Positions 245 through 64,000 of a stretch of DNA of 64,000 bases are shown here, piece by piece. Origin of the DNA: a virus; IMG/VR virus record IMGVR_UViG_3300030107_006047, positions 8,061 to 72,060 of that record, one strand, 5' to 3'. The position numbers and the translations under genes were made by a program. The notes under the pieces were generated by a model that was not told the origin of the DNA, did not search any database, and worked only from the letters and a program-made list of their open reading frames with translations. The stretch's first letter is position 1; each line of letters begins with the position of its first letter.

Positions 245-254
245 GGAGTATCAA

Positions 255-920: not shown

Positions 921-988
921 TTGGTTGCTATAAATCGAAACTAAGTGTTAGAGTCACTTTATGTTTGTGACAAATTTTGGAGAAAAAC

Positions 989-1909: not shown

Positions 1910-1929
1910 TTCAAACTTGAGGCCCCAAA

Positions 1930-2973: not shown

Positions 2974-2982
2974 TATACCTTT

Positions 2983-3011
2983 GACAGGGGCCATTCCGGC
3001 CCCTGTCTTTT
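2983..3011 (+). terminator. Rho-independent terminator after capsid gene
   Basis: GACAGGGGCC-ATTCC-GGCCCCTGTC-TTTT. Confidence 0.8.
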
Positions 3012-3050
3012 CATCGCCATAAATATCGAAAGAGCGGAGGATATTAAAAA

Positions 3051-3590
3051 ATGGCAATTCATAAGATTGATGGTGGCCCTGGTGGCGAAACCAATCATTT
3101 TCCAAAAAAGTTCGTAACTCTCTACACTGCAGCAGGCATCGCCATTGCTAAAGGTGACTGGGTTGCGATTGATCTTGACGACTCCACAAACGGTCTTGGT
3201 GCCTCTGTTGAGCAAAGCACAGTGGCGCTTCCTCAGTTGGTGTTTGGTGTTGCTACTGAGGCGAAAGCACTCAACGACAGTGGAAACATTCGAGTCCAGG
3301 TTGCTGGATACTACGGCCATGAGGATGGCTCTTCGGCAACTCTCGCAGCAGGCGAGGGTGCAAACGTAGAGACCAGCGTGGCTGCAGGAGACTTTATCGT
3401 TGCATCCCTCACGACTGCAGGTCGGGCTCAAGAAGTCGATAACAATGCAATCGTTGTCGGAAACAGCCAAGCAAATATCCAGACTGCAATGCGAATTGCT
3501 CGTGTTGGTATTGCTTTGGAAGCCGCTGGAGCTAACAACTACGGCGCAAACGAGACCGGCGTTATGATCATTGACCAGGGTTACTTCTAG
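3051..3590 (+). CDS. Putative capsid cement/decoration protein
   Basis: Follows the capsid gene; Ala/Gly-rich beta pattern (IAKGDWVAI, FGVATEA, VAAGDFIV, VGIALEA). Confidence 0.65.
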   Translation: MAIHKIDGGPGGETNHFPKKFVTLYTAAGIAIAKGDWVAIDLDDSTNGLGASVEQSTVALPQLVFGVATEAKALNDSGNIRVQVAGYYGHEDGSSATLAAGEGANVETSVAAGDFIVASLTTAGRAQEVDNNAIVVGNSQANIQTAMRIARVGIALEAAGANNYGANETGVMIIDQGYF

Positions 3591-21000: not shown

Positions 21001-24000
21001 GGGCGGGCCCGAAGATCCACCAGTGGGCGGGCCAGGAAAAGACACATTCGACGATGTTGGCCCAACAGATTCTCCTCGAGATCTTTTGCCTGCTCCGAAA
21101 TCTTTTGAAGATCAGTGGGAGTTTATTCAGGTTCTCGAATCTCCCAATGGCGGGTATTGGAAAAGGAAGGGAGAGGGTCCTGCGGTCACCAGCCCTCTTT
21201 CTCACCCAGAGCTTGCTGGAGGAAAGGGCGCAGACGCGATTACTGTGTTCAGGCATTCTCCAGTTCTTGGGGAAACACCTGCGGCTGCCGGTGACTGGGT
21301 GGGCGCAAGGATTAAGCCCACGGGAGTATGGGGAGATCACTTTAATCCGATAATGCACGCATCCAGGGGTGCGGACCACCCGGCGCTAACCCTTTACAGC
21401 GCTATTGATGGAAATACTTACAAGTTCACCATTGCCGCTACCAGCAGGGCGTCGCAGTCAAAGATAGGTGACGTTCCTGAGATGTATAGGACTTTGGTGG
21501 CAGAGTCTTTGGCTGAGTTCAAGCAGCATTTGGATTCTAATCCAGATGCTGAGTACGTCTTTATTCCACAAAAATCCAAGATGAAGATTGCTTATAAGCC
21601 ATCGGGACAAATAGCTTTTCGCGACCAGGGTTACCCTGAAAAGACCTTCTCGTTCTACAAGAAGTGGGCAAGAGATCTTGGTCTTGAAGAAACGACAGCC
21701 TGGTATTACCCGGAAAAAGGGAGCTACCGCGAAACTAAAGCGTTTCGTATTCCGTCCAAAAAGCTTGAGAAAATGCAGGAGCAGGCTGCGCTTGCAGCAA
21801 AAGATCCAAGCGTAATTCCTCCGTCTGCTGTTCTTGAGCATCCAAAGCATTGGTCGAAAAAGAAAGTAGACTTCATTGAGTCTTGGAGGAAGTGGGCAAA
21901 AGAGAGCGGAATGGACCCGCTGATTTCGAAAGTTTCCGAAACATTCATGCAGATCCTTCCGAATCGGGCGTTTGAATATCACAACCTTTATTTTCACCCG
22001 ACCAGTAGACACCTTTATGGCTCACAAGCATCTGCCAGAGGAAGCGGTATAGACAGCGGCATCCCTTACGCAGTGAAGCTGTACTTTACGTCGAAAGCAA
22101 TCAAATACGACCCAGAAACTTCTCCTTTGGCAAAGATGACGAAAGAGGAGATCGCTGAGGATGCACGAAAGTCCTTCCAGGCTTGGAAAGACGACAAGCT
22201 AGCAAAACGGAGGAAAGAAAAAGGTCTTGATCCGCCAGGATCAGATGACTATCTTGCTGCCAATTCAGATCTTAGGGCGATTGAGATTAATGAAATCATA
22301 GAAGTGCTCGGCCCTCATGTTGCCGAAATAAGCCGAAGAATGTCGGAAAGGAGAGAATCTGGCGCGAGAGTGCCGGTTGAAGATGATCCTCATTGGCAGA
22401 TTGACACTGACCACGCAAAATACTGGGGCGTATCAAATGCTGGAGAATGGGTTGAGAACCAAGTTCTCCAAACCGGCGTCGCCGCCAAAACGACTGATGT
22501 TGGCTATAATCCTACACTTATAAGAAGGGCTGTAAGGCGAGCAAGCGACGCAATTGCGCAGAGCGAATACAGCCTAATCAAGGTAGCGCATACGTTTGTA
22601 CACGAGATGACGCATGTCCTTCACTACTCAGTTCTTTCAGAGAAGGAACTGAAGGCCCTCAGGAGAGCATACGTTCGTGAACGAGATGCGGGGTTTCCAA
22701 ATTGGAGAAGAGCTAGAGATTTTAAGAAGGATTTGAAAACAGAAAGCGCTTTCGGTGAATGGCTTGCAGACACTGTTTCAGATTATTGGATTACCGGAAA
22801 CGCAAGCAGGCACGGTTTGTTTACCAAGGAAGAGGCGGGGCTTCTTCAATCAGCCATCAGAAGAATGGCTCACTGGTTCAAACAACTATTTGGTTGGAGG
22901 AGCCAGACCATTCGGGGAACGGCACCTCTCGATACGTTCCCAGAGGAGATCATCGATCTTCTTGAAAGGCTTACAAAACAGGCGCTTGAAGGCGAAGAAG
23001 CTAAAGCGGGATGGGTTGATGAAACGGTAGAAATTAGACCAAAATCAGAGCTTCGTAGCTGGTACTCAGAAGACCTTGGGCCTGTTGCGTCTACGCGCCG
23101 TACAGGCCCTCCGCGCCGTGGAAACGAGATTCCTCGTAAGGATTGGGACGAAAACTGGCAAGACAAGCCCGCGATAGAATCTGCGCGGTGGTTGAGAGAT
23201 CAAGTAGATAACGATCTTCAAAAAGCAGTATTAGACAAAGTCATAGAAAGCCTGGACGAAACAGGCACAGATCCAAGAAGCACGTCCGTAAAGACGTACT
23301 TGTCAGACCTCCCTGGATTATCTGGTCGGTATCATCCCGACAGGGGTTGGGTTTTGCTCGACCCGGCTCGGTCATCTTGGCAAGAAGGTGGCATGGTTCA
23401 GGTGGCAATCCATGAATTAGTGCATGCGGCTACTGTGGGTAAGATTGAAATCTACCCGGACTCGATCCAGGTGAAGAGGCTGGACCGTCTCTTTGATGAG
23501 GCTAGGTCACAGGTTTTTACTCCTGCTCACAAGACACGTTCTTATGGGTGGAATGACCGGCTGGAGTTTATTGCGGAGGGTCTTTCAAATCCTAAGTTTC
23601 AGGATGAGCTTCGCTCTATCAAAATCAGCGATGAGCTTGCTTCAGAGCTTGGGATTGCAGATCCAAATCTCTGGGAGGGCTTGGTCGCTATTATTAGACA
23701 ACTCTTGGGTCTAGGCGAAAACGACCAGTCAGCACTCTCAGGTCTTCTGAAGGTCACAGACGACATCGCCCGTATGGACATTGAGCCGAAGCGCTCTATG
23801 AGCTGGATGGATAGGTCTAAATACGAGCCTCCGCCACCCGCAAGGATGGAAGAGATTCTTGACACGATCTTAGACGAAAAGTCAGCACAACAGGCGGCCA
23901 CTGCTAACGCCCCTCTTTGGGTAAGATCTATTCAAGAAATGCCAGAAGAGAGGGCGCTTGACGCAGCCGAAAGCATTGCTGCGAACTACGCTCCTGTTGG

Positions 24001-27000
24001 CTCAAAAGAGTACGAAGGCATTGTTTCATACATTGTGACAGGGGGACGAGAGGGAAGGCTGAACAGAAAAATCTTGGCTGACTTTGAACCAGGAACCCCA
24101 GCATCGACTCCATCAACAGGGCCGACTCCAAGGTGGCGAGTGTTTTACGACACAAAGGTTGAGGGTAAAGACGGAACTACCAAGCTTGTTTCTTCTGCAG
24201 AGGTTTGGAATAGCGCTGACGCAGACGCGCTGTACCACATAATGAAGAGCGGCAACATCTTTATGATCTTCAACAACGGCGGAAAGCTTCTGCGCCGATT
24301 CCTTGGCTCAAGAGACTACCGTCACTTGGTTAGAGAGCTTGATACCAAGGGGGGCCGAGACAGGCTGTCTCCAGATGGAGAGCGTGCAGCCAAGAAAGCA
24401 TTCAAGGCATACATTGAAACAGGCAAGGCAAGCGGCCCACTACTGCCGCTGTTTGATCAGTTGTACCTGAATCTCCAATCGTACTGGCTACGCCTGTCTA
24501 AAGACAGGTCCATTATCGCATCCCCTGAAATTCGAGGATGGTTTGATGAATGGCTTGCCCCAGACTTAAACCTAAGACCCCTTGCTGCTGAGATTACGGA
24601 AAGAGTTTTGACCAGATTCAAGCAGGTCAGAATTGCAGAGCCCGAAGATCTTCTGAAAAGATTGGAAGAGGGCATGGTCGGCCTTATGGGCCGAAAAGAA
24701 GAGTTTTGGCGCGTTCCTTTAGATACGCCAACTGTCAGAAACGCTCTTGGCATTACTGACTACACCAAAGAAATGGATGTCGTTGACGCCTTTTCTAGGG
24801 CTGTTGGGTATGTGGCTGGTGAGCACGCCAGGATTATGTCTGGCGCTGAGAAGATGTTTGACCTGACCACCCGAAGCCACGTTCCTGCAAGCCGGGTAAA
24901 GGCTATCCACAGGGATGCGAATCGTCGCGTTTACCAAGTACTTAATGGAAAGGTCGAGCACGGAACAGGAACAGGAAAGCTTGAAGGAAAGGTGGTCGCA
25001 GTTCTTTCTCCGGCACAAGCTGCATCCTTTAGGGTCTTTCTAAGATCTCTTAGTGCTGAGGCTCTTGGTAATATCCTTCCAATCCACCTTCTTGATGAAT
25101 CTACTGACCTTACCCAAATATCGCTTGCTGACATGAACACCATCATGGAAGTCGTCATTGATATTGAGGCGGGTGTGGCGGCTTCAAGAACGCACTACTC
25201 TGAGCGCATTTCGCCAACCCTCGCTGTTGCGATGTGGAACGGCCTTAAGCAAATGTCGATCAACTCTGAGAAATACTCCGACCTAATGAAGTCAGTATCA
25301 GGTGGAATCCGGTCTCGATTCTCAGAGGCTTCCGATCTTGAAGATCTTGGTCCGTTCCAGCGACAAGTAGTAGAGATGACAACCAGAGAGTTGGGCGGCA
25401 TTCCAAACGAAATGCTCAGGTGGCTTATTGAGTTCAGGAAAGGGAACAAAGACGCTACTCTTCATGAAATGTATCTGGCAATGAAGAACCAGCTAGAAGC
25501 TCCAGTCAAAGTAGAGCTTGTTGAAAAGATTATGGGAAGGCCAGCCACGCCAACAGACAAGGGCTCTAAAGGCTGGCTTGTAGAACTGGAAAGGTTCCAC
25601 GGCTCACTGGAGGCCGACCCAGAAGGGCCCCCTCTTGCGGCTAGCAGGCGAAGGGATGCTCTTTTAGGCAGGGTAGACGATGAGGTTCAGTATGAAGATC
25701 CTACTGGCGGCGACATAGCAGGGTCATTCTTGGACCATGTATTGGAGAACCTTTCAGATCTTCAAAGCATGATGGAGCAAGAAAAGCTGTCTCACCCGGT
25801 ATACGGGCGGCTTGCAGAGGAGGATCATCATTCCCTGCAGATCCTTCAAACCTACAAAGACAAGCTTAAGAAGTTTAGAGAGGGTCAGGAGAAAGGCGCT
25901 CCGAGAGAATCCTTGGATAAGATCTTGTCCGAAGAAGACTTTTCTGCAGTCGAGGACGCCCTTTATTACGTTCTCGACAGAATCAGAAGGCAGAAAGACA
26001 GGATCAGCCAGAGGGCTGTAAAGATTGGTCGCGCTCTTTCTGGTGACACTGACTTTGCCGATTCTATCTTCATGAAGAGTTCTGATGTTCAGGGCGAGTA
26101 CTACGTCATGTTTTATGAAGGCAGATGGCTTGAGATGTTCGAAGCCTTTGGCACAAGAACAGGCATGGCCACTGGCTTCGAAAAGACCAGAGGTAAGGCC
26201 CCAGAAATAGACCCCGGCACCGCGCTTGTTCATATGATTGCAACGCTTAGGGCTGATGAGATTCTCGAGGGCCTTGCCGGAGTGATGGCCAAGTATGGTA
26301 TCGCGAAAGATGTTCGAGAGCTTACTTCTAACTACTCTGCTGCAAGAGCCATTGAAGGGCAGTACAGCGGAATAAACAGGGATCTGTTTCACGGTCGGAT
26401 TCAGTATTACATCGACGGAATACTGTCTTTCCAAATGAGCGCCAAGAGATACCCCTATGCTCCAATGTACACTGCAAAGGCGGGGGATACCCTTGAGAGT
26501 ATTGCTAAATCTCATGGTGTGACAGCTAAGCAGCTCGCCATGTGGAACGGCCTTGCTGTTACGGATCCCTTGGTGGCCGGGCAAGCAATAAGAACAGCCG
26601 ACCATAAGATGCTTTTAGAGCAGCCTCGCGCTCCTTTTACCGAAAAGCTTGCCCCTGTTCTTCCCACAAGAGAAACAAGAAGAGCGAAAGAACGTGGAGC
26701 GCCGGAAGACTTTTACGGCAATGTCCACGATCTTGAGGCTTATACACAAGCGGTAGACATTATCCATAACTGGGGCTTTAAAACAGCTAAGGAAGGGTTT
26801 GAGCTAAGAACGTTGCCGGATGGCAGTAGGGTCTTTGCCCCGAATTCGGTTTGGAAGCATCTTGATAATGCGCTCGATAGGGCCACGGGCGCTGGCACTG
26901 CGCGTGGGGTTGTTGCTCACAGGGTTGATCCTGCTCCGCTTGGTGTGACCGACTACAAATGGTCACCTGATGCCGAACGAAAGATGGCTCTTGGTAGGGC

Positions 27001-28522
27001 TGTTGATTCGCTTCAAAATATGTTCCCCTCCACCTTTGCCAGAATCAAGATGGGAGTGACGACAGGAATCGTTCTTCCGAACCCCGCTTATTTCACTGGT
27101 GTTTTCTTGGGAGCAGGGTTTCAGGCAATGCAAGGCGTTGGTCCTGTTGGGTTCTTTAAGATGATGAGAAACCCAAAACAGACTGGTGCGGTGATTGCAA
27201 GGCTCTGGAAAGAGGGATCTTTTGCGCCAGATGCTCCCCCAATTGTTTCAAAGAACGGTCAGATTTACACCGTTGAAATGCTTGCGCAGCTTGCAGAAGC
27301 TCACGGGTTGAAATCCAGCTTCATTCATGCTGAGACGATGAAGGCGATTGCGTCGGATATTCGTGAGTTCCATCCTGGCTTTTGGAACAAGATGAGAGTT
27401 GGTCGGTGGGCAAAGAACTGGCAGAAGACACTTATCGAAAGCGCCACCGCACTGGATAACTATTGGCGTGTTTCAGTCTTTATTCATGAAATAAGAATGG
27501 GTAAGTCCCCTGCTGCTGCTGCCGAAAAAGCCCGGCTTGTTGGTTACGACTACGCGGCTCTCACCAAGTGGGAGAAGAAGTTCGCCAGAAATACGATCAT
27601 GTTCTACTCGTACATGCGCAAGAACATGGATCTGTTCTGGGACACGCTTCTAACAAACCCGGAACGGCTGATCGGTCAAATGCGGCTCTTGAGAGGGATC
27701 CATACGGTCTGGTTGGATGACGACCCTCAGATTGTATTGAAGGACTATCTTCACGGAAGGCTGCCTACTTATTTCAAAGAGACCACAATAAATACGCATA
27801 AGTACAGCCAATGGATGTTCATCTCACCTCCCCTCCCCATGATGGACGCGCTCAACATTTATATCGACATATACGATCTGATTGCGTTTAGAGACGAAGA
27901 GGCGATGCGAGGGCTTGCCACAAGATCCGCTCCTTGGGTGCAAGCACCATTTGTTATGGCAACAGGAAAAGACATTTTCTGGGACAAAGAGCTAAACGAA
28001 TACAACAAGATTCCGTCATGGTTGATGGAGATGGATCTTGCTTTGACGGGCGGCGGCCTCATGTATGGAGTATTCGGCGCACAAAGAAGGCCCCATAGCG
28101 ATCTTAGCAGGGCAGACATTTCGGGAGAATCTGAACGCGGCTGGTATCACGCAAGGAACGGTAGGGCCTGGTGGATCTGGCGAAACCTTCTGCAGTTTCC
28201 TGGCGCTGGCCGATCTATGGACACCATTTCATATATGGACCGAGCGAACCTTGGGGCTGTCGAGGCTTCCGTCCGTACCGCCCGTTGGGCCAGGAGGACT
28301 GGGGCGGAAAGCGGTTGGTGGTCTGGGGTGCCAGAAATGGGCGAAGGAGACACCATGGGGCCAAGAACCGGCCTTGCGTGGAAAGACGAGTTGGCTGGTC
28401 TGTTTGGGTTCAAGCCTATTCATGTTCCTCAAAGATCACACCAAACGGCTGTTGATAGTATTAGAATGCACAAAAGGAAAAAGCAGGTTTTGGCCCGAGA
28501 ACGTCTATCAGAAGAAGACTAA
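18047..28522 (+). CDS. Giant polyvalent internal virion protein (two zincin-like HExxH motifs, LysM, C-terminal LPD38-like region)
   Basis: 3491 aa; VHEMTH (nt 22601) with downstream EWLAD; IHELVH (nt 23411) with EFIAEGLSNPKFQ; LysM YTAKAGDTLESIAKSHGVT...NGL (nt about 26468-26593); YDY..LT..EK...MFYSY near C-terminus. Confidence 0.8.
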   Translation: MSNGNDDDILLEGMTGFAEEPVLGGGVYRGELDLTGELDTSPAEMFEDVDVVGSIRDFEETYSKAATPVTYIEQEQINDQLREAIEMQLRSTRPGHEDDWYKERVEKRIHDLSFVHANYAPDPPELPSVSFLKNLYQQYPEQLRSTYRPDSSVGRVVSAISTDKTDEQIQELIDKTTVSEWPSEFTWGGGFVNAMQRGLSRRVIEVEAGADKPGSEMRWEHGRKVSREYEAIMDDQGWGAGVARMWANGPSMDENDAYRAGLFLDEDEATARELVVSTGLGMTFGAMVRSKLGYLLPRAGVWGRRTFGLRGAVKGATAGSSGGPIGMTIGAVIGGFVGYGAGKVWGKVDAEEFFKPVPAFPQDEDDDGWFFALPKGLVDLSTRTLVLTGLADSAVVPIMASSNEEADRMRDIIAMSRPSEAWESLVHEYRTARDSGRTSEELREELRPLMGGMVRNVAWADLPDAARHADNLDLETAIEYATANKDVGDINAPKFTFQYFVGLANEGNTGKKGLQRVLHSLPIGQILNHVPQIIVGDESRPGSIPSVDTFIDGVMVAARDTEEAYALTGTDTTRDLATGFAELMLERREVGGTTRYVENTPGKLFRVLSSVPELYMEMRLPFDIPLTPASRDARYNLGIRDPDVGYWANFFSNVETGEMGLARHVTDEMISRGVDRQSWQYRGIATGGVMADWLVYWERPIISGIGMPTRAGLRGYGAWKQYKDNPLRLQAVTAALSPRLYAFRNKVDVQNTQAWANVSRFLGEDTGLEGLQTLKGGKASDGSDVVLGVRESGIVDRMIEAMEQGKSFEDAEASLPTYRDHDWYTVQSHLLSEGVKNGVIKGDDVWAVVPKPMRSQVIQVMAAAGIEPSSAIRALNQYILKARKINLHAMEKLLTEGTPEMIAFRGSDQYKNLRNVLLEAVGSAGGATDHVNISMPKLELQAWIAALDPQRPNIKSMEDYFDALRIELEGAGGPPPTKGPKDPPVGGPEDPPVGGPGKDTFDDVGPTDSPRDLLPAPKSFEDQWEFIQVLESPNGGYWKRKGEGPAVTSPLSHPELAGGKGADAITVFRHSPVLGETPAAAGDWVGARIKPTGVWGDHFNPIMHASRGADHPALTLYSAIDGNTYKFTIAATSRASQSKIGDVPEMYRTLVAESLAEFKQHLDSNPDAEYVFIPQKSKMKIAYKPSGQIAFRDQGYPEKTFSFYKKWARDLGLEETTAWYYPEKGSYRETKAFRIPSKKLEKMQEQAALAAKDPSVIPPSAVLEHPKHWSKKKVDFIESWRKWAKESGMDPLISKVSETFMQILPNRAFEYHNLYFHPTSRHLYGSQASARGSGIDSGIPYAVKLYFTSKAIKYDPETSPLAKMTKEEIAEDARKSFQAWKDDKLAKRRKEKGLDPPGSDDYLAANSDLRAIEINEIIEVLGPHVAEISRRMSERRESGARVPVEDDPHWQIDTDHAKYWGVSNAGEWVENQVLQTGVAAKTTDVGYNPTLIRRAVRRASDAIAQSEYSLIKVAHTFVHEMTHVLHYSVLSEKELKALRRAYVRERDAGFPNWRRARDFKKDLKTESAFGEWLADTVSDYWITGNASRHGLFTKEEAGLLQSAIRRMAHWFKQLFGWRSQTIRGTAPLDTFPEEIIDLLERLTKQALEGEEAKAGWVDETVEIRPKSELRSWYSEDLGPVASTRRTGPPRRGNEIPRKDWDENWQDKPAIESARWLRDQVDNDLQKAVLDKVIESLDETGTDPRSTSVKTYLSDLPGLSGRYHPDRGWVLLDPARSSWQEGGMVQVAIHELVHAATVGKIEIYPDSIQVKRLDRLFDEARSQVFTPAHKTRSYGWNDRLEFIAEGLSNPKFQDELRSIKISDELASELGIADPNLWEGLVAIIRQLLGLGENDQSALSGLLKVTDDIARMDIEPKRSMSWMDRSKYEPPPPARMEEILDTILDEKSAQQAATANAPLWVRSIQEMPEERALDAAESIAANYAPVGSKEYEGIVSYIVTGGREGRLNRKILADFEPGTPASTPSTGPTPRWRVFYDTKVEGKDGTTKLVSSAEVWNSADADALYHIMKSGNIFMIFNNGGKLLRRFLGSRDYRHLVRELDTKGGRDRLSPDGERAAKKAFKAYIETGKASGPLLPLFDQLYLNLQSYWLRLSKDRSIIASPEIRGWFDEWLAPDLNLRPLAAEITERVLTRFKQVRIAEPEDLLKRLEEGMVGLMGRKEEFWRVPLDTPTVRNALGITDYTKEMDVVDAFSRAVGYVAGEHARIMSGAEKMFDLTTRSHVPASRVKAIHRDANRRVYQVLNGKVEHGTGTGKLEGKVVAVLSPAQAASFRVFLRSLSAEALGNILPIHLLDESTDLTQISLADMNTIMEVVIDIEAGVAASRTHYSERISPTLAVAMWNGLKQMSINSEKYSDLMKSVSGGIRSRFSEASDLEDLGPFQRQVVEMTTRELGGIPNEMLRWLIEFRKGNKDATLHEMYLAMKNQLEAPVKVELVEKIMGRPATPTDKGSKGWLVELERFHGSLEADPEGPPLAASRRRDALLGRVDDEVQYEDPTGGDIAGSFLDHVLENLSDLQSMMEQEKLSHPVYGRLAEEDHHSLQILQTYKDKLKKFREGQEKGAPRESLDKILSEEDFSAVEDALYYVLDRIRRQKDRISQRAVKIGRALSGDTDFADSIFMKSSDVQGEYYVMFYEGRWLEMFEAFGTRTGMATGFEKTRGKAPEIDPGTALVHMIATLRADEILEGLAGVMAKYGIAKDVRELTSNYSAARAIEGQYSGINRDLFHGRIQYYIDGILSFQMSAKRYPYAPMYTAKAGDTLESIAKSHGVTAKQLAMWNGLAVTDPLVAGQAIRTADHKMLLEQPRAPFTEKLAPVLPTRETRRAKERGAPEDFYGNVHDLEAYTQAVDIIHNWGFKTAKEGFELRTLPDGSRVFAPNSVWKHLDNALDRATGAGTARGVVAHRVDPAPLGVTDYKWSPDAERKMALGRAVDSLQNMFPSTFARIKMGVTTGIVLPNPAYFTGVFLGAGFQAMQGVGPVGFFKMMRNPKQTGAVIARLWKEGSFAPDAPPIVSKNGQIYTVEMLAQLAEAHGLKSSFIHAETMKAIASDIREFHPGFWNKMRVGRWAKNWQKTLIESATALDNYWRVSVFIHEIRMGKSPAAAAEKARLVGYDYAALTKWEKKFARNTIMFYSYMRKNMDLFWDTLLTNPERLIGQMRLLRGIHTVWLDDDPQIVLKDYLHGRLPTYFKETTINTHKYSQWMFISPPLPMMDALNIYIDIYDLIAFRDEEAMRGLATRSAPWVQAPFVMATGKDIFWDKELNEYNKIPSWLMEMDLALTGGGLMYGVFGAQRRPHSDLSRADISGESERGWYHARNGRAWWIWRNLLQFPGAGRSMDTISYMDRANLGAVEASVRTARWARRTGAESGWWSGVPEMGEGDTMGPRTGLAWKDELAGLFGFKPIHVPQRSHQTAVDSIRMHKRKKQVLARERLSEED

Positions 28523-39110: not shown

Positions 39111-39359
39111 GTGCTTCATATGGTGTGCGAAGATTACAGAAAGGGGCTTCCTAATGCGAGCACGAGGGCTCTGTTTGTTGATTATCTAAATCAAAAACTT
39201 GAAGAGCTTGACCTCAGCATCACGGTTTCTCACCTGAGAGAGCTTGAAAAAGGAAGAAGAATACCAAGCCTTGAGCTTGCGTTAGGCATCGAGAAGGCAA
39301 CAGGGGGTGTTGTCTCCGCAAGAGAGTGGCCCGGCCTTAGCTCAAAGATACGGCGCTAA
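39111..39359 (+). CDS. XRE/Cro-like HTH regulator
   Basis: ITVSHLRELEKGRRIPSLELALGIEKATGGVV. Confidence 0.8.
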   Translation: MLHMVCEDYRKGLPNASTRALFVDYLNQKLEELDLSITVSHLRELEKGRRIPSLELALGIEKATGGVVSAREWPGLSSKIRR

Positions 39360-40203: not shown

Positions 40204-41523
40204 CTAAAACTCATCATCGTCTGAGCGTGACTTTCCTGGGAACGAAAGAACTTCAGTTGGGCCCCATACATAGGCTCTCTTACCCATCATTGTTGTTCTT
40301 CTTCGCTTCCATCCAAGGTTTCTGAGCACATCCGACACTCGCATTTGCGCAAACTTTGTCATCTGATTTGAATCAAGACCAAGACCATCGGCGAGGATTT
40401 CAGAAACCATCAGGTCTCGTCGGCCCAGAAGCCACTTCTCTAAGATTGGTTGCCACGGGTCAACTTCTCTGAAGTCTTCTGAAACACTCTTAAGATCGAT
40501 CTCGTTCTTGTTGTCCAGCCACCAAGGCTCGTTGTTGTTGAATGCGTTGACTGCCTCAGCCCACAACTGATCCCTGTTCGATGAGACCCAATCAAGGTCA
40601 ACCTTTCCAATCTTGACTGGCCAGAATCGACGGCTACCAGTGTTATCAGAAATGAATGACTCTTCATTTGTGGTTCCACAGAACACACAGTGTCGCTTGA
40701 TGGTCACCGAGTGGCGACCGTAGGCTGGTCGATAGTTATCAAACCCGGCTGACAGGAACGCTTTGGTTCTACTGTTGGCCCGCTTTCTAATAGAGTCCAG
40801 CTCAGCGATCTCGTAGATCCAGGCCCTGCGAATCTGGCTGTAGGCATTGGGTGATCCAATGTCCATTGGCGTATCGCAGAAGTATTCGTCACCGGCAAGA
40901 ACCCTAAACGTCGTGCTCTTTCTTGCACCCTGTGGTCCGAACAGAATCAGGCAACAGTCGGCCTTGCACCCAGGCTTTATCGCCCTGGCCACTGCGGAAA
41001 TCATCCATCTTCTGCCCATGTCCCTATTCAACGAAACATCGTCAGCCCCGACACCTTTCACCAGCCAATAGTCGAGCCTCTTCACCCCGTCCCACTGGAG
41101 CCCGTTGAGCCAATCAACAAGAGGGTTGACCCCGTTCTCCTCGCCGACAAGCCTGGCCACCTCTGCGACGGCTGTAGTGGAGACTCTCATCCCATACACT
41201 GAGTCAATCCACATCTGTATCTTTGTGTCGTCAGTGTCCTTGTATTCTTTGTCGCCACGCATCATGACGCCCTTGAACTGATCTTCCCAGATCTTTCCCT
41301 TCACTCTGGTGTCGTGAGTAAGTATGAGGTGAATGTTGCGACGGGTTGGTCGCACTACTAAATCACCATTCTTAGTTAGATATCCATCCAACATTGACGA
41401 CACGTTGGGCTGTGGTTTAGTTTTCCGGTTTGCCTTCTTGTCAGCAGAACCAGATTTTATTGCGTCATCAACAAGCGACCGCAGCGTTTTTCCATTGGCA
41501 ATTGCAGCATCTAAATCCGGCAC
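40204..41523 (-). CDS. VapE/VirE-family P-loop ATPase (replicative helicase)
   Basis: WDGVKRL, PGCKAD, Walker A GPQGARKST, WIYEIAEL, YRPAYGR, CVFCGTTN, DNTGSRRFWP, RDQLWAEA. Confidence 0.9.
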   Translation of the reverse strand: MPDLDAAIANGKTLRSLVDDAIKSGSADKKANRKTKPQPNVSSMLDGYLTKNGDLVVRPTRRNIHLILTHDTRVKGKIWEDQFKGVMMRGDKEYKDTDDTKIQMWIDSVYGMRVSTTAVAEVARLVGEENGVNPLVDWLNGLQWDGVKRLDYWLVKGVGADDVSLNRDMGRRWMISAVARAIKPGCKADCCLILFGPQGARKSTTFRVLAGDEYFCDTPMDIGSPNAYSQIRRAWIYEIAELDSIRKRANSRTKAFLSAGFDNYRPAYGRHSVTIKRHCVFCGTTNEESFISDNTGSRRFWPVKIGKVDLDWVSSNRDQLWAEAVNAFNNNEPWWLDNKNEIDLKSVSEDFREVDPWQPILEKWLLGRRDLMVSEILADGLGLDSNQMTKFAQMRVSDVLRNLGWKRRRTTMMGKRAYVWGPTEVLSFPGKSRSDDDEF

Positions 41524-41524
41524 T

Positions 41525-42520
41525 CTACTTCTCCAGCTTCATTCTAAAAATTTCTCTTGGTGATAGGCTCTTAAAAATATCTTTGGCGTAGTTGTCTCCC
41601 GCCTCATCAGGATCGGTGCATACAATGACCGGAAGTCCCTTTGGAATCTTGGCGCTCGATAGTTTAGCAAAAGAGCCAGACGTACCAGACAGCACCGCAA
41701 CATTCATATTCTCATGTATTGCCGCTGAAGAGGCTCGGAAAAGATCCGTAATCCCTTCGCAGATAAGCAACGCTTCTACCCCTTCATCAATAGACCCCCT
41801 CAACAACTTGATTCCGGCCTTGTTCCCAAGCAGCAAACCAGATGCCTCGCACCCTTTAGGCCACCGGCTCTTCGGTCTTGACTTGGTCTGGGTCACCGCT
41901 CTTGCGTGCAGGCTTGCGACCTTGCCTGTTATTTCGAAAGCAGGGGTTGCGAGCCGCCAAACAGGGGACCACACAGAAGGCCACCAGGCTGGCCACTGAT
42001 ACTCATTGCGTGTTGGAAGGGCTCTAACGATGCCGGTCTGAGACAACAGCTCAATGTCGAACTTTCTTTCCTTGAGGAAGAGCCTGACCATGTTGTCTTC
42101 CTTGCACCCGTTCATTTGGTTTAGCGGGGTGGATGCTCTCCACAAGCTTGCAACCTCGGAAAGCGACGGCCTCTTTGGTTCTGTCCTCTTGGGCTTGAAG
42201 TCTTTGTACCGTTCTGAAAGCCCGGTGCCCTCGAACCACTCGTAAACCTTTCTCTGCTTGTCTTTGTTGATGTCGCTTAGTTTTCCACCAGCTACCGCAT
42301 AAGAGACAAGGTCAACCACATCCCCCTTCTTCTGACATCGATGGCACTGCCAAGCGGTGTCCGATGCGTTCAGACCAACAGGCCCCCTCTTGTCTCCGCT
42401 CCCCCTGTTCTCTTCTCCACAGGCCGGGCAAGGCGACAGTGACCTCCCCTTCCTGATTGATATCTTTAGTCGTTCTGCAGCGACAGATATCGGCGTTCGC
42501 TTTGCTCTTTGAATCCACAT
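41525..42520 (-). CDS. DNA primase (Zn-finger plus TOPRIM)
   Basis: CPAC...CHRC..KGD zinc ribbon; ICEGITD and DPDEAG TOPRIM motifs; GGAG RBS at ATG 42520. Confidence 0.82.
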   Translation of the reverse strand: MWIQRAKRTPISVAAERLKISIRKGRSLSPCPACGEENRGSGDKRGPVGLNASDTAWQCHRCQKKGDVVDLVSYAVAGGKLSDINKDKQRKVYEWFEGTGLSERYKDFKPKRTEPKRPSLSEVASLWRASTPLNQMNGCKEDNMVRLFLKERKFDIELLSQTGIVRALPTRNEYQWPAWWPSVWSPVWRLATPAFEITGKVASLHARAVTQTKSRPKSRWPKGCEASGLLLGNKAGIKLLRGSIDEGVEALLICEGITDLFRASSAAIHENMNVAVLSGTSGSFAKLSSAKIPKGLPVIVCTDPDEAGDNYAKDIFKSLSPREIFRMKLEK

Positions 42521-42628
42521 GGTTGCTCCCCAACTTGTCACCCCCGGTTTGACCCCCGGCTAATGCCGGGGGCCATGGGGAGCCCCACATGGGGCTGGGC
42601 TGATCAGGCCCGAGACAACTCAATAACT

Positions 42629-43124: not shown

Positions 43125-43200
43125 TGGCTGGGGCAGCGGGACTCGAACCTGCAACTTCCTGATTAACAGTCAGGCGTTCTGCCAATTGAACTACACCCCA
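43125..43200 (-). tRNA. tRNA-Asn (GTT)
   Basis: TGGGGTG-TA-GTTC AATTGGCA GAAC-G-CCTGA CT GTT AA TCAGG-AAGTT-GCAGG TTCGAGT CCCGC-TGCCCCA-G-CCA cloverleaf. Confidence 0.92.
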
Positions 43201-49525: not shown

Positions 49526-49542
49526 TTGACATCTCGTTGACA
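49526..49542. promoter_or_regulatory. TTGACA-N5-TTGACA direct-repeat box
   Basis: TTGACA at 49526 and 49537; same spacing recurs at 54724 and 55998. Confidence 0.55.
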
Positions 49543-50111: not shown

Positions 50112-50801
50112 TTATTCTTCAGTGGTTTCAACAACTTGCAAGTGGCTCGCATCATCCAGGTGTTCTGGCACAGGCTCTTCATCATCGAAGAAGATGTCCT
50201 CCTCTTCTGCCCATGGGTCTTCACCGATAGCTTGTTCGACATCATCAGGGCTCGACGTGTCAAGCACAGTGATCTCCGCATCCTTTGCGAACTCCCATCC
50301 GGCTGGCGGATACCACCTGTAGCGTCGCACCCTTTGGATCATAGAGCGTCGTCTCTTCCAGCCGAGAGACTCCATCACGGTTGCGAGCTTCATCTCTCCG
50401 GCTCTGCCTGACCAGTCAAGGCCCAACTCTTCTGACTCGTTGACCTCGGAGAGGATGTCTGCGCTTGAGATACCGATGTGTCTCTTGCGGAGCTTGGCTC
50501 GAAGCCTGTCTGCGAACTCTTCATCCACCTGTCGCACGTCTTGTACCATGTCCATCTGAGGCACAGCAGCCAACACACCGGAGTACAGCTCAAACTCGGA
50601 CGGCGTGATGCCGTAGCGCCCAGTCAGGTAGACCAGCAGGGATGCCATCTCAGCTTTCCCGGCTTTGGTTGTGCCTGTGTAGATAGTCCCAGAAGGACTC
50701 GCGGTGTACTTCCCTGCCAGCTTCTCGTCATGGCGTAGCGCCAAGAAGACAGCGTGTGATCCGTTCCCTGCCTCAATAGCTTTTCTCGTTTGTTCTTTCA
50801 T
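50112..50801 (-). CDS. ATPase-less paralog of the VapE/VirE helicase
   Basis: Matches N- and C-terminal parts of 40204..41523 (LRHD..L.GK, YGI, LGL, LGWKRRR) with no Walker motifs. Confidence 0.7.
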   Translation of the reverse strand: MKEQTRKAIEAGNGSHAVFLALRHDEKLAGKYTASPSGTIYTGTTKAGKAEMASLLVYLTGRYGITPSEFELYSGVLAAVPQMDMVQDVRQVDEEFADRLRAKLRKRHIGISSADILSEVNESEELGLDWSGRAGEMKLATVMESLGWKRRRSMIQRVRRYRWYPPAGWEFAKDAEITVLDTSSPDDVEQAIGEDPWAEEEDIFFDDEEPVPEHLDDASHLQVVETTEE

Positions 50802-51205
50802 TGTCCTGGCCTCCTTGTGCCTGGTTGGGTGGTGTTAGGTGTGTTCAGGGTATCCGAAAGGATCCAGTTAGGCAACTGCCTCCACGGTGACACACCGTCA
50901 TTAGCGGGTGACCAAGAGGTTACCATTGGGCAAGTATTGATACTGTCAGTAGCACTTCTGCCCATATGGGTGGCAGCACTGCCTACACCTTGGATTGCAA
51001 AAACTTCTGTGGTTACAGGTACTTGGCGCAGCCGGTTAGCCTTCCTAACCTTATTCCTTATCTTTACTCCCCCCCCTATATAAAAAACCATAGAGAAAAC
51101 AACAGGGGCAAATACCCCCCCTATATGTCTATAGGGTTTTAGGCGTGCCAGGTGGGGCAGAGGGTATAAAGTGCAGTGATTACAATACATTAGCTACTGG
51201 ATAAC

Positions 51206-51634: not shown

Positions 51635-51964
51635 GAGGCTTGAGTTATTTGGATTATTTGGATATTTTGGAGATAATAGGGTCGGTAAAGCCTCCCGCTT
51701 CGCAGGAAAGGATACCGTGGGTTGATGAGGTAAAAATGAAGCGTGGGTATTGGTGGCGGGCGGCCATCGAAAGGGTGTACCCCATATTGATAGACCAGCT
51801 GTACCTACAACGCCTCGGAAACACTAAGAAAAACAATAAGTTACGCATCCAGGCTCGTAAAAACCCAACCGGCAACCCGAAGTCAGACACCAAGGGCCCA
51901 AAGCTACCGAACGTTAGGTTACTCCGGCTCCGTGCGAGAGACGAATAGCCCCCGAAAAACTGAA

Positions 51965-52110
51965 GGCGCGACTCGGTACGCTCCCCGACAAGTGCTTGTG
52001 ATGTGTTGCCCATGCTCACCAGTATAACCTGGCGCGATCTGGTACGGCCCCGAACATTCAAGGGGGCGCGACTCGGTACGGCCCAAGACGTAAAGGCGCG
52101 ATCTGGTTCG
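51965..52110 (+). repeat. 16-bp motif cluster 1 (4 copies)
   Basis: GGCGCGAYYYGGTWCG at 51965, 52031, 52065, 52095. Confidence 0.9.
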
Positions 52111-53162: not shown

Positions 53163-53296
53163 GGCGCGATCTGGTCCGGGCCCAGACGCTACCCGGTTCG
53201 TGCCCCGACGCTATCAGGTACGCACCCAGACAGGCGCGATCTGGTACGACGGCAGACGCTATCCGGTTCGTGTGCATACAGGCGCGACTCGGCACG
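53163..53296 (+). repeat. 16-bp motif cluster 2 (6 copies)
   Basis: Copies at 53163, 53185, 53207, 53233, 53255, 53281; periods 22/22/26/22/26. Confidence 0.9.
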
Positions 53297-53493: not shown

Positions 53494-53509
53494 GGGGGCT
53501 TGCGCCCCC
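53494..53509 (-). promoter_or_regulatory. GCAA-tetraloop hairpin before RBS
   Basis: GGGGGC-GCAA-GCCCCC on coding strand; identical at 53831 (-) and 56402 (+). Confidence 0.7.
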
Positions 53510-53830: not shown

Positions 53831-53846
53831 GGGGGCTTGCGCCCCC
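53831..53846 (-). promoter_or_regulatory. GCAA-tetraloop hairpin before RBS
   Basis: GGGGGC-GCAA-GCCCCC then TAAAGGAC. Confidence 0.7.
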
Positions 53847-54723: not shown

Positions 54724-54740
54724 TTGACAAGCCCTTGACA
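54724..54740. promoter_or_regulatory. TTGACA-N5-TTGACA direct-repeat box
   Basis: TTGACA AGCCC TTGACA. Confidence 0.55.
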
Positions 54741-54743
54741 TAT

Positions 54744-54822
54744 GGCGCGATCTGGTACGTGCCCACACAAGAACAGGCGCGATCTGGTTCGCACCCAAAC
54801 AGACGGGGCGCGATCTGGTTCG
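54744..54822 (+). repeat. 16-bp motif cluster 3 (3 copies)
   Basis: GGCGCGATCTGGTWCG at 54744, 54776, 54807. Confidence 0.9.
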
Positions 54823-55997: not shown

Positions 55998-56014
55998 TTG
56001 ACATTCTGTTGACA
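55998..56014. promoter_or_regulatory. TTGACA-N5-TTGACA direct-repeat box
   Basis: TTGACA TTCTG TTGACA. Confidence 0.55.
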
Positions 56015-56047: not shown

Positions 56048-56136
56048 GGCGCGATCTGGTTCGCAAGTACCCCACCAATAGGCAGGCGCTAATCGGTACG
56101 GGCCCGGACTGATTATCCGTGGCGCGATCTGGTTCG
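56048..56136 (+). repeat. 16-bp motif cluster 4 (3 copies)
   Basis: Copies at 56048, 56085, 56121 between divergent promoters. Confidence 0.9.
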
Positions 56137-56401: not shown

Positions 56402-56417
56402 GGGGGCGCAAGCCCCC
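56402..56417 (+). promoter_or_regulatory. GCAA-tetraloop hairpin before RBS
   Basis: GGGGGC-GCAA-GCCCCC, orientation flips with transcription. Confidence 0.7.
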
Positions 56418-56446
56418 ACCACCTTGAGACCTAAGGAGTAGCTGAC

Positions 56447-62264: not shown

Positions 62265-62408
62265 GTGCCTTCATCTAAAGAAGACAGGGCGTGGATTTCT
62301 GATAAGATTTCTAAGCTACGCAAAGAGGGCATGCCTGAAAAGCAGGCCGTTGCGGTGGCTTATGACATGAACAAGAAGAGAAGTAAAAGTGGCAGAAAAA
62401 AAAGATGA
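62265..62408 (+). CDS. Small basic phage protein (not in ORF track)
   Basis: ISDKISKLRKEGMPEKQAVAVAY motif, frequent in phage head/packaging regions. Confidence 0.6.
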   Translation: MPSSKEDRAWISDKISKLRKEGMPEKQAVAVAYDMNKKRSKSGRKKR

Positions 62409-64000
62409 CGACTCTGTTCTTGAGGAGTTCCTAACTCCTGTCTTAGAAAATCCTGAAATGGCGGGCATTGTTGGCCCTGCTCTTCTTGCTGGTGGAAAAC
62501 TCTTCGAACCAGAGGGCGAGGAGTGGTTAAAGGATTTTGATGAAGAAAAGGCTCAGGCGTACTTAGAGGAGGCAAAGGCCCTACAAGCAGGAGTGCCTCA
62601 AGAACAAATCGACGCACAAAGGGGCGCTAGTCTTGTAAGAGCGATTCCTAAGGAAGAATACCCAGCAGCAACTTTGGAATCAATTTCAAAGCGTATGTCT
62701 GAGCTAGGAAAAGGCCCCTCCACACACGACTCGGCCATATACCAGCTTGCTTCAGACAGCAGCCTCTGGAACGCGGAGGCCATCCATATCCTTGGTCAAT
62801 CCTTTCCGTATGAAATCTACCTGGCGTCAAAGGGCTTCGCGGACATCCTGAATAATAAGAGCCTGCCTGCAGCAATTCGCTTTGAGGTAAGAGAGCCCAA
62901 GAAGCTTCTCGATCTTCTCTCTGACAGCATAGGAGAAATTGTTAAAGCCCAGGCCCTTGCTGAGGAAGTTGTCAACATTCGTGAAGCCAACCTTCCCGCA
63001 ACATCGTCTGAAGCAGGCAAGCGCGTAAACAGGTTTTTGCTTGAAAAAGAAAGGGAGGCCAAACGGATCTTCTCGGAGGCGATGGCTACACTTGAGAGCC
63101 GCACAGAGGCCTTAAATGTTGAACTGCGATCAATGCAGTCAGAAATGGCTCTACTCTATGAACAGCAGGGGGGCTTCGCTTTTAACAATATGTACTCCGA
63201 GTTGTCCGGGGCGATTGATGATGTTCAAGACATAAGCGACAGGCTTTGGCTAATCTCGGAAAGGTGGACGATGACGAGGGGTGCCGCTTTTGCCAGGATT
63301 GGAACATCTGGAAAAGAGGTAGATGCCGCAACGATGGCAGCGCTTGAGAAGATGTATACGGAGCAGGCTCGTGCCCCGAGGACCGAGCTTCTTCACTGGA
63401 GCGAAGATCCTGAAAAGAGAAAGTTTTTCGATCCTAGTGGAACGCTTGAAACCGCTGAAGATCTTCTTGAGGCGGGCATGGAGTCGCGACCCTATACGCA
63501 AGACCTTTTGGGTGCTTATCAGCAGAAGAGTGACGCTGAAATTCTTGAAGAGCTTCATGGTCACATTCCAAAAGGGTCGCGAGACCTGCCTGAAAACATT
63601 CTGGTCACAAGGTATGGAGACATCATCGCGATGCTTGATGACGGTGCCGATGCTGTTGAACTGCTTGATGAAATCGATGATTTTATTTCTGCGAAATACC
63701 CGAACGCTAAGTTTGCAGGCTATGTCGCGTCTGTTACCCCGCAAACATATTATGACCTGTTTGGATTTTGGCCGAGCGAGCTGCTTACTATCGTCGAGCC
63801 AAACCAGATCACCGATGCGTGGGTCAATGCAATACACGCAGCCATGGTGTCTGAAGGGCACCCCGTCTGGACTCCAGGCCAACAGCCCGATCCCAAGCCA
63901 ACCCCTGGTCGTATAATCGAAGGCCCAACCCAAAAGAAGCTTAATGATGCTGAGCAGGTTTTCTTTCGGGGCGCTTGGGAAAACTGGGCAGATCGAGAAG
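62389..64000 (+). CDS. Large acidic hypothetical protein, 3'-truncated (not in ORF track)
   Basis: Frame 1 read codon by codon is open from GTG 62389 to the window end (about 537 codons). Confidence 0.75.
   Translation, partial: MAEKKDDDSVLEEFLTPVLENPEMAGIVGPALLAGGKLFEPEGEEWLKDFDEEKAQAYLEEAKALQAGVPQEQIDAQRGASLVRAIPKEEYPAATLESISKRMSELGKGPSTHDSAIYQLASDSSLWNAEAIHILGQSFPYEIYLASKGFADILNNKSLPAAIRFEVREPKKLLDLLSDSIGEIVKAQALAEEVVNIREANLPATSSEAGKRVNRFLLEKEREAKRIFSEAMATLESRTEALNVELRSMQSEMALLYEQQGGFAFNNMYSELSGAIDDVQDISDRLWLISERWTMTRGAAFARIGTSGKEVDAATMAALEKMYTEQARAPRTELLHWSEDPEKRKFFDPSGTLETAEDLLEAGMESRPYTQDLLGAYQQKSDAEILEELHGHIPKGSRDLPENILVTRYGDIIAMLDDGADAVELLDEIDDFISAKYPNAKFAGYVASVTPQTYYDLFGFWPSELLTIVEPNQITDAWVNAIHAAMVSEGHPVWTPGQQPDPKPTPGRIIEGPTQKKLNDAEQVFFRGAWENWADRE

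What the first reader, a model, noticed from the sequence alone, without database searches (positions are those of the whole stretch)
50112..50801. Helicase paralog with the whole ATPase core removed, next to the repeat arrays
Seen: the 229-aa protein aligns by eye to both ends of the VapE/VirE helicase (40204..41523). N-terminal: VFLALRHDEKLAGKY vs IHLILTHDTRVKGKI, and YLTGRYGITPS vs WIDSVYGMRVS. C-terminal: ADIL...LGLD...EMKLATVMESLGWKRRRSMIQRVRRYRW vs SEIL..LGLD...QMRVSDVLRNLGWKRRRTTMMGKRAYVW. Both have acidic tails. Walker A/B and all central motifs are absent, yet the ORF is intact with an AGGAGG element upstream. Inference: an oligomerisation-plus-winged-helix protein acting as origin binder/helicase loader, or as a dominant-negative inhibitor of own or rival helicases. 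With the adjacent non-coding block and 16-bp arrays it could form an undescribed initiation or exclusion system.
Basis: partly seen in the sequence, partly recalled or inferred. Interest (0 to 1): 0.75.

Follow-up and report, generated by a model that had tools for sequence, protein, structure and literature searches.

The report
Motor-less copy of a phage helicase
A marine phage carries a small, well-conserved gene that keeps both end domains of its replication helicase but has lost the ATP-driven motor, and it probably helps or controls the start of phage DNA replication.

Summary
ORF 50112..50801 (-) encodes a 229-aa protein whose C-terminal part is homologous to the winged helix at the end of the VapE/Rep-type helicase 40204..41523 (-). 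Support: BLASTP E 2e-07, profile-profile E 1.2e-18. Independent AlphaFold models give the same order of helices and strands in both domains. The ATPase core is absent and a 63-residue acidic tail follows.

The gene is not decaying. dN/dS was 0.016-0.168 in the 27 of 49 pairs that could be computed. In related viral contigs it lies upstream of every unfused helicase with at least 9 kb of upstream sequence (28 of 28). It is absent from the 4 with a fused primase-helicase. A tree of the winged helices separates paralogs from helicases on one branch (support 100/99), so the duplication is old.

The helicase resembles staphylococcal SaPI Rep, whose winged helix reads origin repeats. I therefore read the protein as a replication-initiation accessory; this is inferred, not shown.

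The link to the 16-bp arrays is not supported. They lie upstream of early sigma-70-like promoters and were found in only one sub-lineage.

The parts
50112..50801 (-). CDS of the 229-aa motor-less helicase paralog (stop codon 50112-50114)
   Evidence: ORF list. Seven full-length homologs at 42-80% identity. 47 representative clusters at E<=1e-3. dN/dS 0.016-0.168.
50577..50801 (-). N-domain, residues 1-75 (H2-11, H15-24, E32-34, E40-42, H49-63, H67-74), like the core of the helicase N-terminal tier
   Evidence: hhalign 18-68 against helicase 64-115, E 8.1e-06, score 32.8, shuffled maximum 17.6. Secondary-structure elements match helicase H61-70, E78-81, E86-89, H96-110, H116-129 at offset +46/47.
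50529..50576 (-). Low-confidence linker, residues 76-91, in the place of the helicase ATPase core
   Evidence: pLDDT below 50 over residues 76-91. No match to the helicase middle part.
50304..50528 (-). Winged helix, residues 92-166 (H94-104, H113-122, H132-145, E149-155, E158-164), basic (pI 9.97)
50115..50303 (-). Disordered acidic tail, residues 167-229, with the conserved short motifs DPW and PVP
   Evidence: pLDDT below 50. 23 D+E and 1 K+R. Invariant D195, P196, D207, P210, L221, E225, E229 in alignment A1.
50810..50816 (-). Shine-Dalgarno AAGGAGG, 8 nt before the ATG
   Evidence: Sequence read.
51104..51119 (-). Terminator-like hairpin after the upstream 142-aa gene; the paralog would then be the first gene of the next transcription unit
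   Evidence: Consensus scan; inference only.
40204..41523 (-). Parent-type VapE/Rep helicase, 439 aa (N-tier core at 41137-41343, winged helix at 40258-40455)
   Evidence: PF05272 at 3e-74. Profile hit to PDB 7pds_A, E 5.6e-62. Foldseek against 7pds, E 5.7e-29, TM 0.74, 453 columns. Model pLDDT 84.3.
41525..42541 (-). Separate Toprim (DnaG-like) primase, 338 aa, directly upstream of the helicase
   Evidence: Pfam Toprim 1.1e-06 and phrog_47 1.2e-10. Conserved next to the helicase in L001, L002, L004, L005 and L006.
51965..52110 (-). Nearest 16-bp motif array (4 copies). Context only; not shown to belong to the paralog
   Evidence: 16 matches in the window against 0.14 expected, in four clusters: 51965-52110, 53163-53296, 54744-54822, 56048-56136.

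Best explanation
The 229-aa protein is an old, selectively maintained paralog of the phage's own Rep/VapE-type initiator helicase.

Shown:
- It kept the core of the N-terminal ring tier and the C-terminal winged helix, lost the whole ATPase motor, and carries a long acidic tail.
- It travels with the unfused helicase and a separate Toprim primase across a whole family of marine phages.

Inferred mechanism: it acts at replication initiation. The basic winged helix binds phage DNA at or near the sites that the helicase winged helix reads. The N-tier-like domain, the acidic tail, or both contact the helicase or primase. In that way the protein would mark the origin and help or gate ring assembly. 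It would be a co-loader built from the helicase's own end domains. I favour a positive role, but the sign of the effect is not established.
For: Homology of both domains to the helicase, with controls, and matching secondary-structure order in independent models.

The helicase is a full three-tier relative of SaPI Rep1 (PDB 7pds): profile E 5.6e-62; Foldseek E 5.7e-29, TM 0.74. In the passages of PMC9371898 read, the Rep C-terminal winged helix recognises origin iterons, the N-terminal domain forms one tier of the hexamer and has no known function, and the C-terminal domains contact neighbouring subunits in the closed ring.

Census of 80 helicase loci:
- The paralog lies upstream on the same strand in 42 of 80 loci.
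- It is present in 28 of the 32 loci with at least 9 kb upstream.
- It is present in 28 of 28 of those with an unfused helicase, and in 0 of 4 with a ~700-aa fused primase-helicase.
- It lies 2.0-9.0 kb before the helicase. In 16 of the 42 it is within 2.0-3.1 kb, directly before the primase-helicase pair.

Purifying selection: dN/dS 0.016-0.168 in the 27 computable pairs of 49.

In the winged-helix tree, 29 paralogs and 29 helicases separate on one branch (support 100/99) with parallel sub-clades. That indicates one old duplication followed by co-inheritance.

No DNA polymerase family was hit among the ORFs I scanned in this 72,060-base genome. The phage would then have to recruit host replication enzymes at a defined origin.
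Against: There is no direct evidence that the protein binds DNA, the helicase or the primase.

The N-domain similarity is seen only by domain-cut profile-profile comparison (Prob 79-84%). BLASTP, full-length hhalign and hmmsearch did not find it.

The paralog winged helix is no more similar to the helicase winged helix of its own genome than to those of other genomes (0.253 against 0.248; 362 of 2000 permutations reach the observed value). Shared sequence specificity is therefore not indicated.

Co-occurrence may only mean that both are core genes of one phage lineage. Several loci are near-copies: 29 distinct pairs among the 40 loci that hold both.

Six loci with 6.4-8.9 kb upstream showed no paralog (L012, L016, L037, L051, L062, L078). 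L051 is fused. In L016 the expected distance exceeds the available flank.

No origin has been located in this genome.
Confidence: 0.45

Rival explanations
1. It is a negative regulator of the phage's own initiation. The motor-less protein competes with the helicase for origin sites, or joins the ring as a dead subunit. Either way it would time or limit replication, as truncated initiators do in other viruses.
For: It has the same domain homology as in the best explanation. It lacks any motor. In the passages of PMC9371898 read, Rep C-terminal domains pack against neighbouring subunits, so a lone winged helix could interfere with the ring. Precedents such as papillomavirus E8^E2 are recalled, not checked here.
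Against: Presence in 28 of 28 unfused-helicase loci and co-inheritance over deep divergence look more like an essential partner than a modulator. The gene is transcribed before the helicase on the same strand. There is no own-genome co-variation of the two winged helices.
Confidence: 0.2
2. It is a transcription factor for the early region. The winged helix binds the 16-bp direct-repeat arrays upstream of early promoters and switches early transcription off or on. Resemblance to the helicase would then be ancestry only.
For: In the window, in L001-L003 and in L018 the gene lies just downstream of the array-bearing early region. The arrays lie directly upstream of TTGCCx-N16-17-TAAGAT-type promoters. 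The repeats are non-palindromic and direct, which suits monomeric winged helices (general knowledge).
Against: The motif family was found only in that sub-lineage. Most other paralog-bearing loci, with 2.5-7 kb of upstream sequence, showed no array. The detector is imperfect, since it found only 3 of the 4 window arrays. In compact genomes the gene lies inside the replication module, 2-3 kb before the primase-helicase pair. The N-tier-like domain has no obvious role in this model.
Confidence: 0.15
3. It is a weapon against rivals: a dominant-negative decoy that poisons the Rep-type helicases of co-infecting phages or satellites.
For: Only the architecture supports this: helicase end domains without a motor.
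Against: Its sub-clades parallel those of its own genome's helicase and it always accompanies that helicase. It lies within or before the replication module rather than among accessory genes.
Confidence: 0.05
4. It is a decaying remnant of a duplicated helicase gene with no function.
For: None beyond the loss of the ATPase core.
Against: The reading frame is intact in all homologs. dN/dS is 0.016-0.168. The duplication predates the radiation of the family.
Confidence: 0.01

Closest known systems
SaPI Rep1 / PriRep5 self-loading initiator helicases (PDB 7pds, 7ola; PMC9371898)
   Same: The phage helicase is a full-length structural and sequence relative. The paralog shares the C-terminal winged helix, which in Rep reads origin iterons, and the core of the N-terminal tier.
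   Different: The paralog has no ATPase tier, so it cannot be a helicase. It adds a 63-residue acidic tail. The passages I read say that no extra loading factor has been identified for SaPI Reps.
VapE-like domain family (Pfam PF05272) and the PHROG DNA helicase families phrog_256 and phrog_1313
   Same: Shared ancestry of the flanking domains.
   Different: The defining P-loop domain is missing. The paralog hits no Pfam or PHROG family.
[not shown]
   Same: A helicase-loading factor built from winged helices without any motor; a working analogy.
DnaG C-terminal helicase-binding domain, which resembles the DnaB N-terminal domain (recalled, not checked here)
   Same: A precedent for a partner protein that carries a copy of the helicase N-tier fold and docks on that tier.
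   Different: A different fold family, and the partner is a primase rather than a stand-alone protein.
Truncated initiators and shared DNA-binding domains used as regulators: papillomavirus E8^E2, phage Mu repressor and transposase (recalled, not checked here)
   Same: A regulator that keeps the DNA-binding domain of the replication protein and lacks its active part.
   Different: E8^E2 comes from the same gene as E2, by splicing. Here the copy is a separate gene that diverged long ago.

Membership tests
VapE/Rep-type SF3-like helicase (PF05272) | P-loop ATPase core (VapE-like domain with Walker-type GxxGxxKS and the central motifs) | tested here: not met
   No Pfam hit at E<=0.1. hhalign of both paralog domains against the helicase middle part gave E 0.18-0.39. 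Only a 16-residue linker lies between the two domains.
VapE/Rep-type SF3-like helicase (PF05272) | N-terminal tier domain | tested here: met
   Only the core H-b-b-H-H is present. hhalign E 8.1e-06, score 32.8, against a shuffled maximum of 17.6. Secondary-structure match. Not detected by BLASTP or hmmsearch.
VapE/Rep-type SF3-like helicase (PF05272) | C-terminal winged-helix domain | tested here: met
   BLASTP E 2e-07. hhalign E 1.2e-18. The paralog winged-helix HMM hits the helicase C-terminus in every one of the 85 loci that hold a helicase; L003, the only other locus, ends before the gene.
Winged-helix DNA-binding fold | Three helices followed by a two-strand wing | tested here: met
   [not shown]
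Winged-helix DNA-binding fold | Binds DNA | not testable with these tools
   The only indications are the basic charge (pI 9.97; 16 K+R in 75 residues) and homology to the Rep origin-reading domain.
Iteron-binding plasmid/phage initiators (Rep_3-type and the like) | Sequence membership in a known initiator family | tested here: not met
   No Pfam or PHROG family. No PDB chain below E 0.1 with profiles A1 or A4.
Helicase co-loader / initiator accessory (functional class) | Physical contact with the helicase | tested here: inconclusive
   Only genomic co-occurrence is available (28 of 28). No interaction data.

The most novel reading that the evidence does not exclude
Rep/VapE-type 'self-loading' helicases in this phage family are not self-sufficient. 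A dedicated subunit made from the helicase's own N-tier and winged-helix domains, with the motor deleted, pre-marks the origin or co-assembles with the ring. It would be a Cdt1-like co-loader that evolved from the helicase itself. Its acidic DPW-bearing tail would recruit the separate primase or host replication proteins.
Probability: 0.25. Interest if true: 0.75.

Novelty: new variant of a known kind. Interest (0 to 1): 0.55.

Why it matters
SaPI-type Rep helicases are described as initiator and helicase in one polypeptide, and the N-terminal tier has no known function (PMC9371898, passages read). This family is a natural dissection of that protein: the two outer tiers survive as a separate gene under strong selection, and it always accompanies an unfused helicase. 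If it proves to bind the origin or the ring, it would assign a function to the N-tier. It would also add a new type of helicase-loading or gating factor to phage replication, and it would give a name to an unannotated family present in many marine viral contigs. The protein is small and soluble-looking, and it can be tested in vitro with its cognate helicase without a cultured host.

Tried and rejected
- Complex prediction of helicase 40-425 with paralog 1-170 gave no verdict (score 0.00, controls not run). It is not evidence either way.
- tblastn of the paralog against 50,697 phage records found no match.
- The first viral-contig scan, with the single sequence, found no relative. The alignment-based scan found six.
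- PDB sequence searches with profiles A1 and A4 found nothing below E 0.1.
- Foldseek of the paralog model found nothing at E<=0.001.
- The ESM Atlas search with the N-domain gave no usable hit.
- The N-domain fold could not be searched on its own. Nothing can be said about its fold relative to solved structures.
- Own-genome against cross-genome identity of the two winged helices showed no enrichment.
- The 130-aa ORF 50798..51190 (-), which overlaps the paralog start, is not conserved. In L001 that position holds a Dam-like methyltransferase. I treat 50802-51205 as non-coding.
- Tandem arrays 0.9-1.2 kb downstream of the helicase in many related loci looked like SaPI-style iterons. In L059, the one locus I checked, the array is a coding PAKKVA repeat in a small gene on the opposite strand.
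- The giant 3491-aa ORF and the ~72-kb genome size suggested an N4-like phage with its own RNA polymerase. No RNA polymerase family was hit.
- A hairpin reading of the 16-bp motif was dropped because the stem is not kept in most copies.
- Three literature searches (listings only, apart from PMC9371898) turned up no description of such a paralog.

Full report
WHAT IS THERE

The window is bases 8061-72060 of a 72,060-base virus record that CheckV rates complete. ORF 50112..50801 on the - strand encodes 229 aa from an ATG, with AAGGAGG 8 nt upstream. It hits no Pfam or PHROG family. About 9 kb further along the same strand lie a 338-aa Toprim primase (41525..42541) and a 439-aa helicase (40204..41523). 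The helicase matches the VapE-like domain PF05272 at 3e-74 over residues 139-352.

THE OBSERVATION

C-terminal similarity:
- BLASTP aligns paralog residues 88-165 with helicase 343-422 at 32% identity, E 2e-07.
- Profile-profile comparison gave E 7.6e-10. The profiles were 8 paralog sequences and 37 helicases.
- Domain-cut profiles from 32 family members gave E 1.2e-18, Prob 99.1.

N-terminal similarity:
- BLASTP, full-length hhalign and an hmmsearch with the N-domain model did not find it. The hmmsearch hit no helicase ORF in 86 loci.
E was 1.5e-05 with 8 sequences and 8.1e-06 with 32 (Prob 79-84, score 32.8).
- The same query against the helicase middle and C-terminal parts gave E 0.12-0.39. 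One hundred column-shuffled targets scored at most 17.6.

Structure models:
- The paralog model (pLDDT 63 overall, 72-85 in the N-domain) has H15-24, E32-34, E40-42, H49-63 and H67-74, then H94-104, H113-122, H132-145, E149-155 and E158-164.
- The helicase model (pLDDT 84.3) has H61-70, E78-81, E86-89, H96-110 and H116-129, then H357-365, H373-380, H390-402, E405-412 and E415-422.
- The N-terminal elements coincide at +46/47. The two wing strands coincide at +256/257, and the three preceding helices follow in the same order.

Residues 76-91 form a low-confidence linker where the motor would be. Residues 167-229 are disordered, with 23 acidic and 1 basic residue. The exception is that the nearest repeat array is 1164 bp away, beyond another gene.

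A REAL GENE FAMILY

- Seven full-length homologs at 42-80% identity turned up in the 90%-clustered collection.
- A profile search of 1.84 billion representatives found 47 clusters at E<=1e-3. Most are stand-alone proteins of 140-270 aa covering both domains.
- Some, at 436-455 aa, carry a second winged helix and a small extra C-terminal domain. Others, at 367-379 aa, have the N-domain and a diverged winged helix.
- The helicases in that list match only through their C-terminal winged helix, and all carry PF05272.
- I computed Nei-Gojobori dN/dS on the N-plus-winged-helix region. Of 49 pairs at 60-99% identity among 32 distinct sequences, 27 had an estimable dS. They gave 0.016-0.168. The other 22 were saturated at dS, with dN of 0.085-0.288.

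DISTRIBUTION

I fetched 80 viral-contig loci centred on relatives of the helicase at 45-76% identity. I then searched their six-frame ORFs with N-domain and winged-helix HMMs.

- The paralog lies upstream on the same strand in 42 of 80 loci.
- Where at least 9 kb upstream is held, it is present in 28 of 32.
- All 28 loci with an unfused helicase have it. The four without it all have a ~700-aa fused primase-helicase.
- With shorter flanks the counts fall: 7 of 13 with 6-9 kb, 7 of 16 with 3-6 kb and 0 of 19 below 3 kb. This is expected for a gene 2.0-9.0 kb away.
- L012, L037, L062 and L078 have 6.4-8.7 kb upstream and no hit.
- In 16 of the 42 the gene ends 2.0-3.1 kb before the helicase, just ahead of the primase-helicase pair.
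- Many loci are near-copies: 29 distinct paralog-helicase pairs among the 40 loci that hold both.
- A maximum-likelihood tree of the 58 winged helices puts 29 paralogs and 29 helicases on either side of one branch (support 100/99), with parallel sub-clades. This indicates one old duplication followed by co-inheritance.

WHAT THE PARENT HELICASE IS

The helicase profile hits a single PDB sequence, 7pds_A ('similar to D. nodosus vapE'), at E 5.6e-62. Its model superposes on all six chains of 7pds over about 453 columns, at E 5.7e-29 and TM 0.74. I read passages of the paper describing that structure (PMC9371898). They state the following:
- SaPI Reps are self-loading helicases that form a three-tier hexamer of N-terminal domain, ATPase domain and C-terminal domain.
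- The C-terminal winged helix recognises the iterons of the origin.
- The function of the N-terminal domain is unknown.
- The C-terminal domain is needed for full ATPase and helicase activity, and its DNA-binding motif is covered by the neighbouring subunit in the closed ring.

The paralog therefore corresponds to the two outer tiers without the motor.

MOST LIKELY MECHANISM

Shown: domain ancestry, loss of the motor, selection, and co-inheritance with the unfused helicase.

Inferred: the basic winged helix (pI 9.97) binds phage DNA, and the N-tier-like domain or the acidic tail contacts the helicase or primase. The tail carries the conserved DPW and PVP motifs. The protein would thus act when the helicase is loaded at the origin. 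I favour a positive, co-loader-like role for two reasons: the gene is kept without exception next to unfused helicases, and it is transcribed ahead of them. A negative, competitor-type role is the main rival.

No DNA polymerase family was hit in the ORFs I scanned. That fits a phage that must assemble host enzymes at a defined origin. However, the large unannotated ORFs leave this open. One such ORF appears to run across the ends of the record.

EVIDENCE AGAINST, OR MISSING

- No origin was located.
- The paralog winged helix is no closer to the helicase winged helix of its own genome than to those of other genomes (0.253 against 0.248; 362 of 2000 permutations reach the observed value). Common sequence specificity is not indicated.
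- The N-domain similarity rests on sensitive profile methods only.

THE REPEAT ARRAYS

The motif GRCGCKAYYNRGTWCG occurs 16 times in the window, allowing one mismatch, against 0.14 expected. All copies are on the + strand, opposite to the genes. They form four intergenic clusters: 51965-52110, 53163-53296, 54744-54822 and 56048-56136. All four lie within the first 4.5 kb of the leftward transcription block, which starts at the strand switch and cumulative GC-skew minimum near 56.2-56.4 kb.

Read in the gene sense, arrays C and D are each followed by four elements in order:
- a pair of TGTCAA boxes 4-5 nt apart;
- a TTGCCx-N16-17-TAAGAT or TAAGGT promoter-like element;
- a Shine-Dalgarno sequence;
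- a start codon.

The same layout occurs in L003. The TGTCAA pair occurs three times in the window against 0.06 expected, all on the - strand. Among the 86 loci it occurs only in L001-L003 and once in L043.

The 16-bp motif family is present in L001-L003 and L010, where the paralog is 41% identical, and in L018. L005/L034 and L032 have unrelated arrays. Other paralog-bearing loci showed none in the 2.5-7 kb upstream that I hold. My detector found 3 of the 4 window arrays and none in 40 shuffled loci, so weak arrays can be missed.

I read the arrays as upstream elements of early promoters in one sub-lineage. Their link to the paralog is possible there but not general.

COMPARISON WITH KNOWN SYSTEMS, AND NOVELTY

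The protein is not a member of the helicase family, because the defining ATPase domain is absent. It is not a member of any named initiator family either. The closest known system is SaPI Rep; according to the passages read, no extra loading factor has been identified for it. Working analogies, recalled and not checked here, are Cdt1, the DnaB-like C-terminal domain of DnaG, and truncated initiators such as E8^E2. Three literature searches (listings only, apart from PMC9371898) found no description of such a paralog.

I rate it a new variant of a known kind: a winged-helix replication accessory derived from the helicase by loss of the motor.

VERDICT

- Observation: confirmed.
- Function: unproven.
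- Interest: 0.55.

Noticed in passing
window 51965-52110, 53163-53296, 54744-54822, 56048-56136; TGTCAA pairs at 54724-54740, 55998-56014, 49526-49542 (- strand): Early-promoter architecture. Arrays of a 16-bp non-palindromic motif (3-6 copies, spacing 22-66 bp) lie upstream of a TGTCAA-N4-5-TGTCAA pair and a TTGCCx-N16-17-TAAGAT-like promoter. The layout is conserved in L001-L003 and the motif also occurs in L018. The binding factor is unknown.
   Followed up: partly
window 51635-51964 (- strand sense): A ~330-nt non-coding stretch between array A and the 142-aa gene. It has patches conserved with L001 and L003 and three 9-bp TTATTTGGA repeats at 51645-51671. It could be a leader, a small RNA or part of an origin.
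   Followed up: partly
window 50802-51205: A ~400-bp non-coding block before the paralog, holding two ATATAGGGGGGG boxes around a terminator-like hairpin (51104-51119). In L001-L003 a Dam-like methyltransferase gene lies between this block and the paralog, overlapping the paralog start by 4 bp.
   Followed up: partly
window 18047-28522 (+): A giant 3491-aa ORF among the virion genes. The only family hit is a LysM domain near residue 2800. No RNA polymerase family was detected.
   Followed up: partly
window 62389-63999 (+) and record bases 3-3215 (L089): An ORF open at the end of the record and another open at its start. Together they may be one ~1600-aa gene of unknown function if the genome is circularly permuted.
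   Followed up: no
window 40204-40254 (helicase C-terminus): The helicase ends in ...SRSDDDEF. From memory, an acidic tail with a terminal aromatic residue resembles the partner-binding tails of bacterial SSB and T7 gp4. It may be a recruitment motif.
   Followed up: no
window 53494-53509, 53831-53846, about 56405-56420: A repeated module of a GC hairpin (GGGGGCTTGCGCCCCC) followed, in the gene sense, by a Shine-Dalgarno sequence and ATG. Similar GGGGGCGCAAGCCCCC hairpins occur in L001 and L003.
   Followed up: no
window 43125-43200 (-): A tRNA-Asn (GTT) gene inside the replication module.
   Followed up: yes
window 39111-39359 (+); L059 12171-12413 (-) and 12428-12790 (-): An XRE-type HTH gene lies on the opposite strand just after the helicase block and is conserved in related loci. 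Many relatives also have a small lysine-rich PAKKVA-repeat protein there, whose coding repeats mimic iteron arrays.
   Followed up: partly
P0130, P0132, P0136 (442-455 aa); loci L019-L031, L036, L038, L059, L067, L070, L077: Long forms of the paralog, with a second winged helix, acidic linkers carrying a DDLPWP motif, and a small extra C-terminal domain (...LEWDAEE.IW...).
   Followed up: partly
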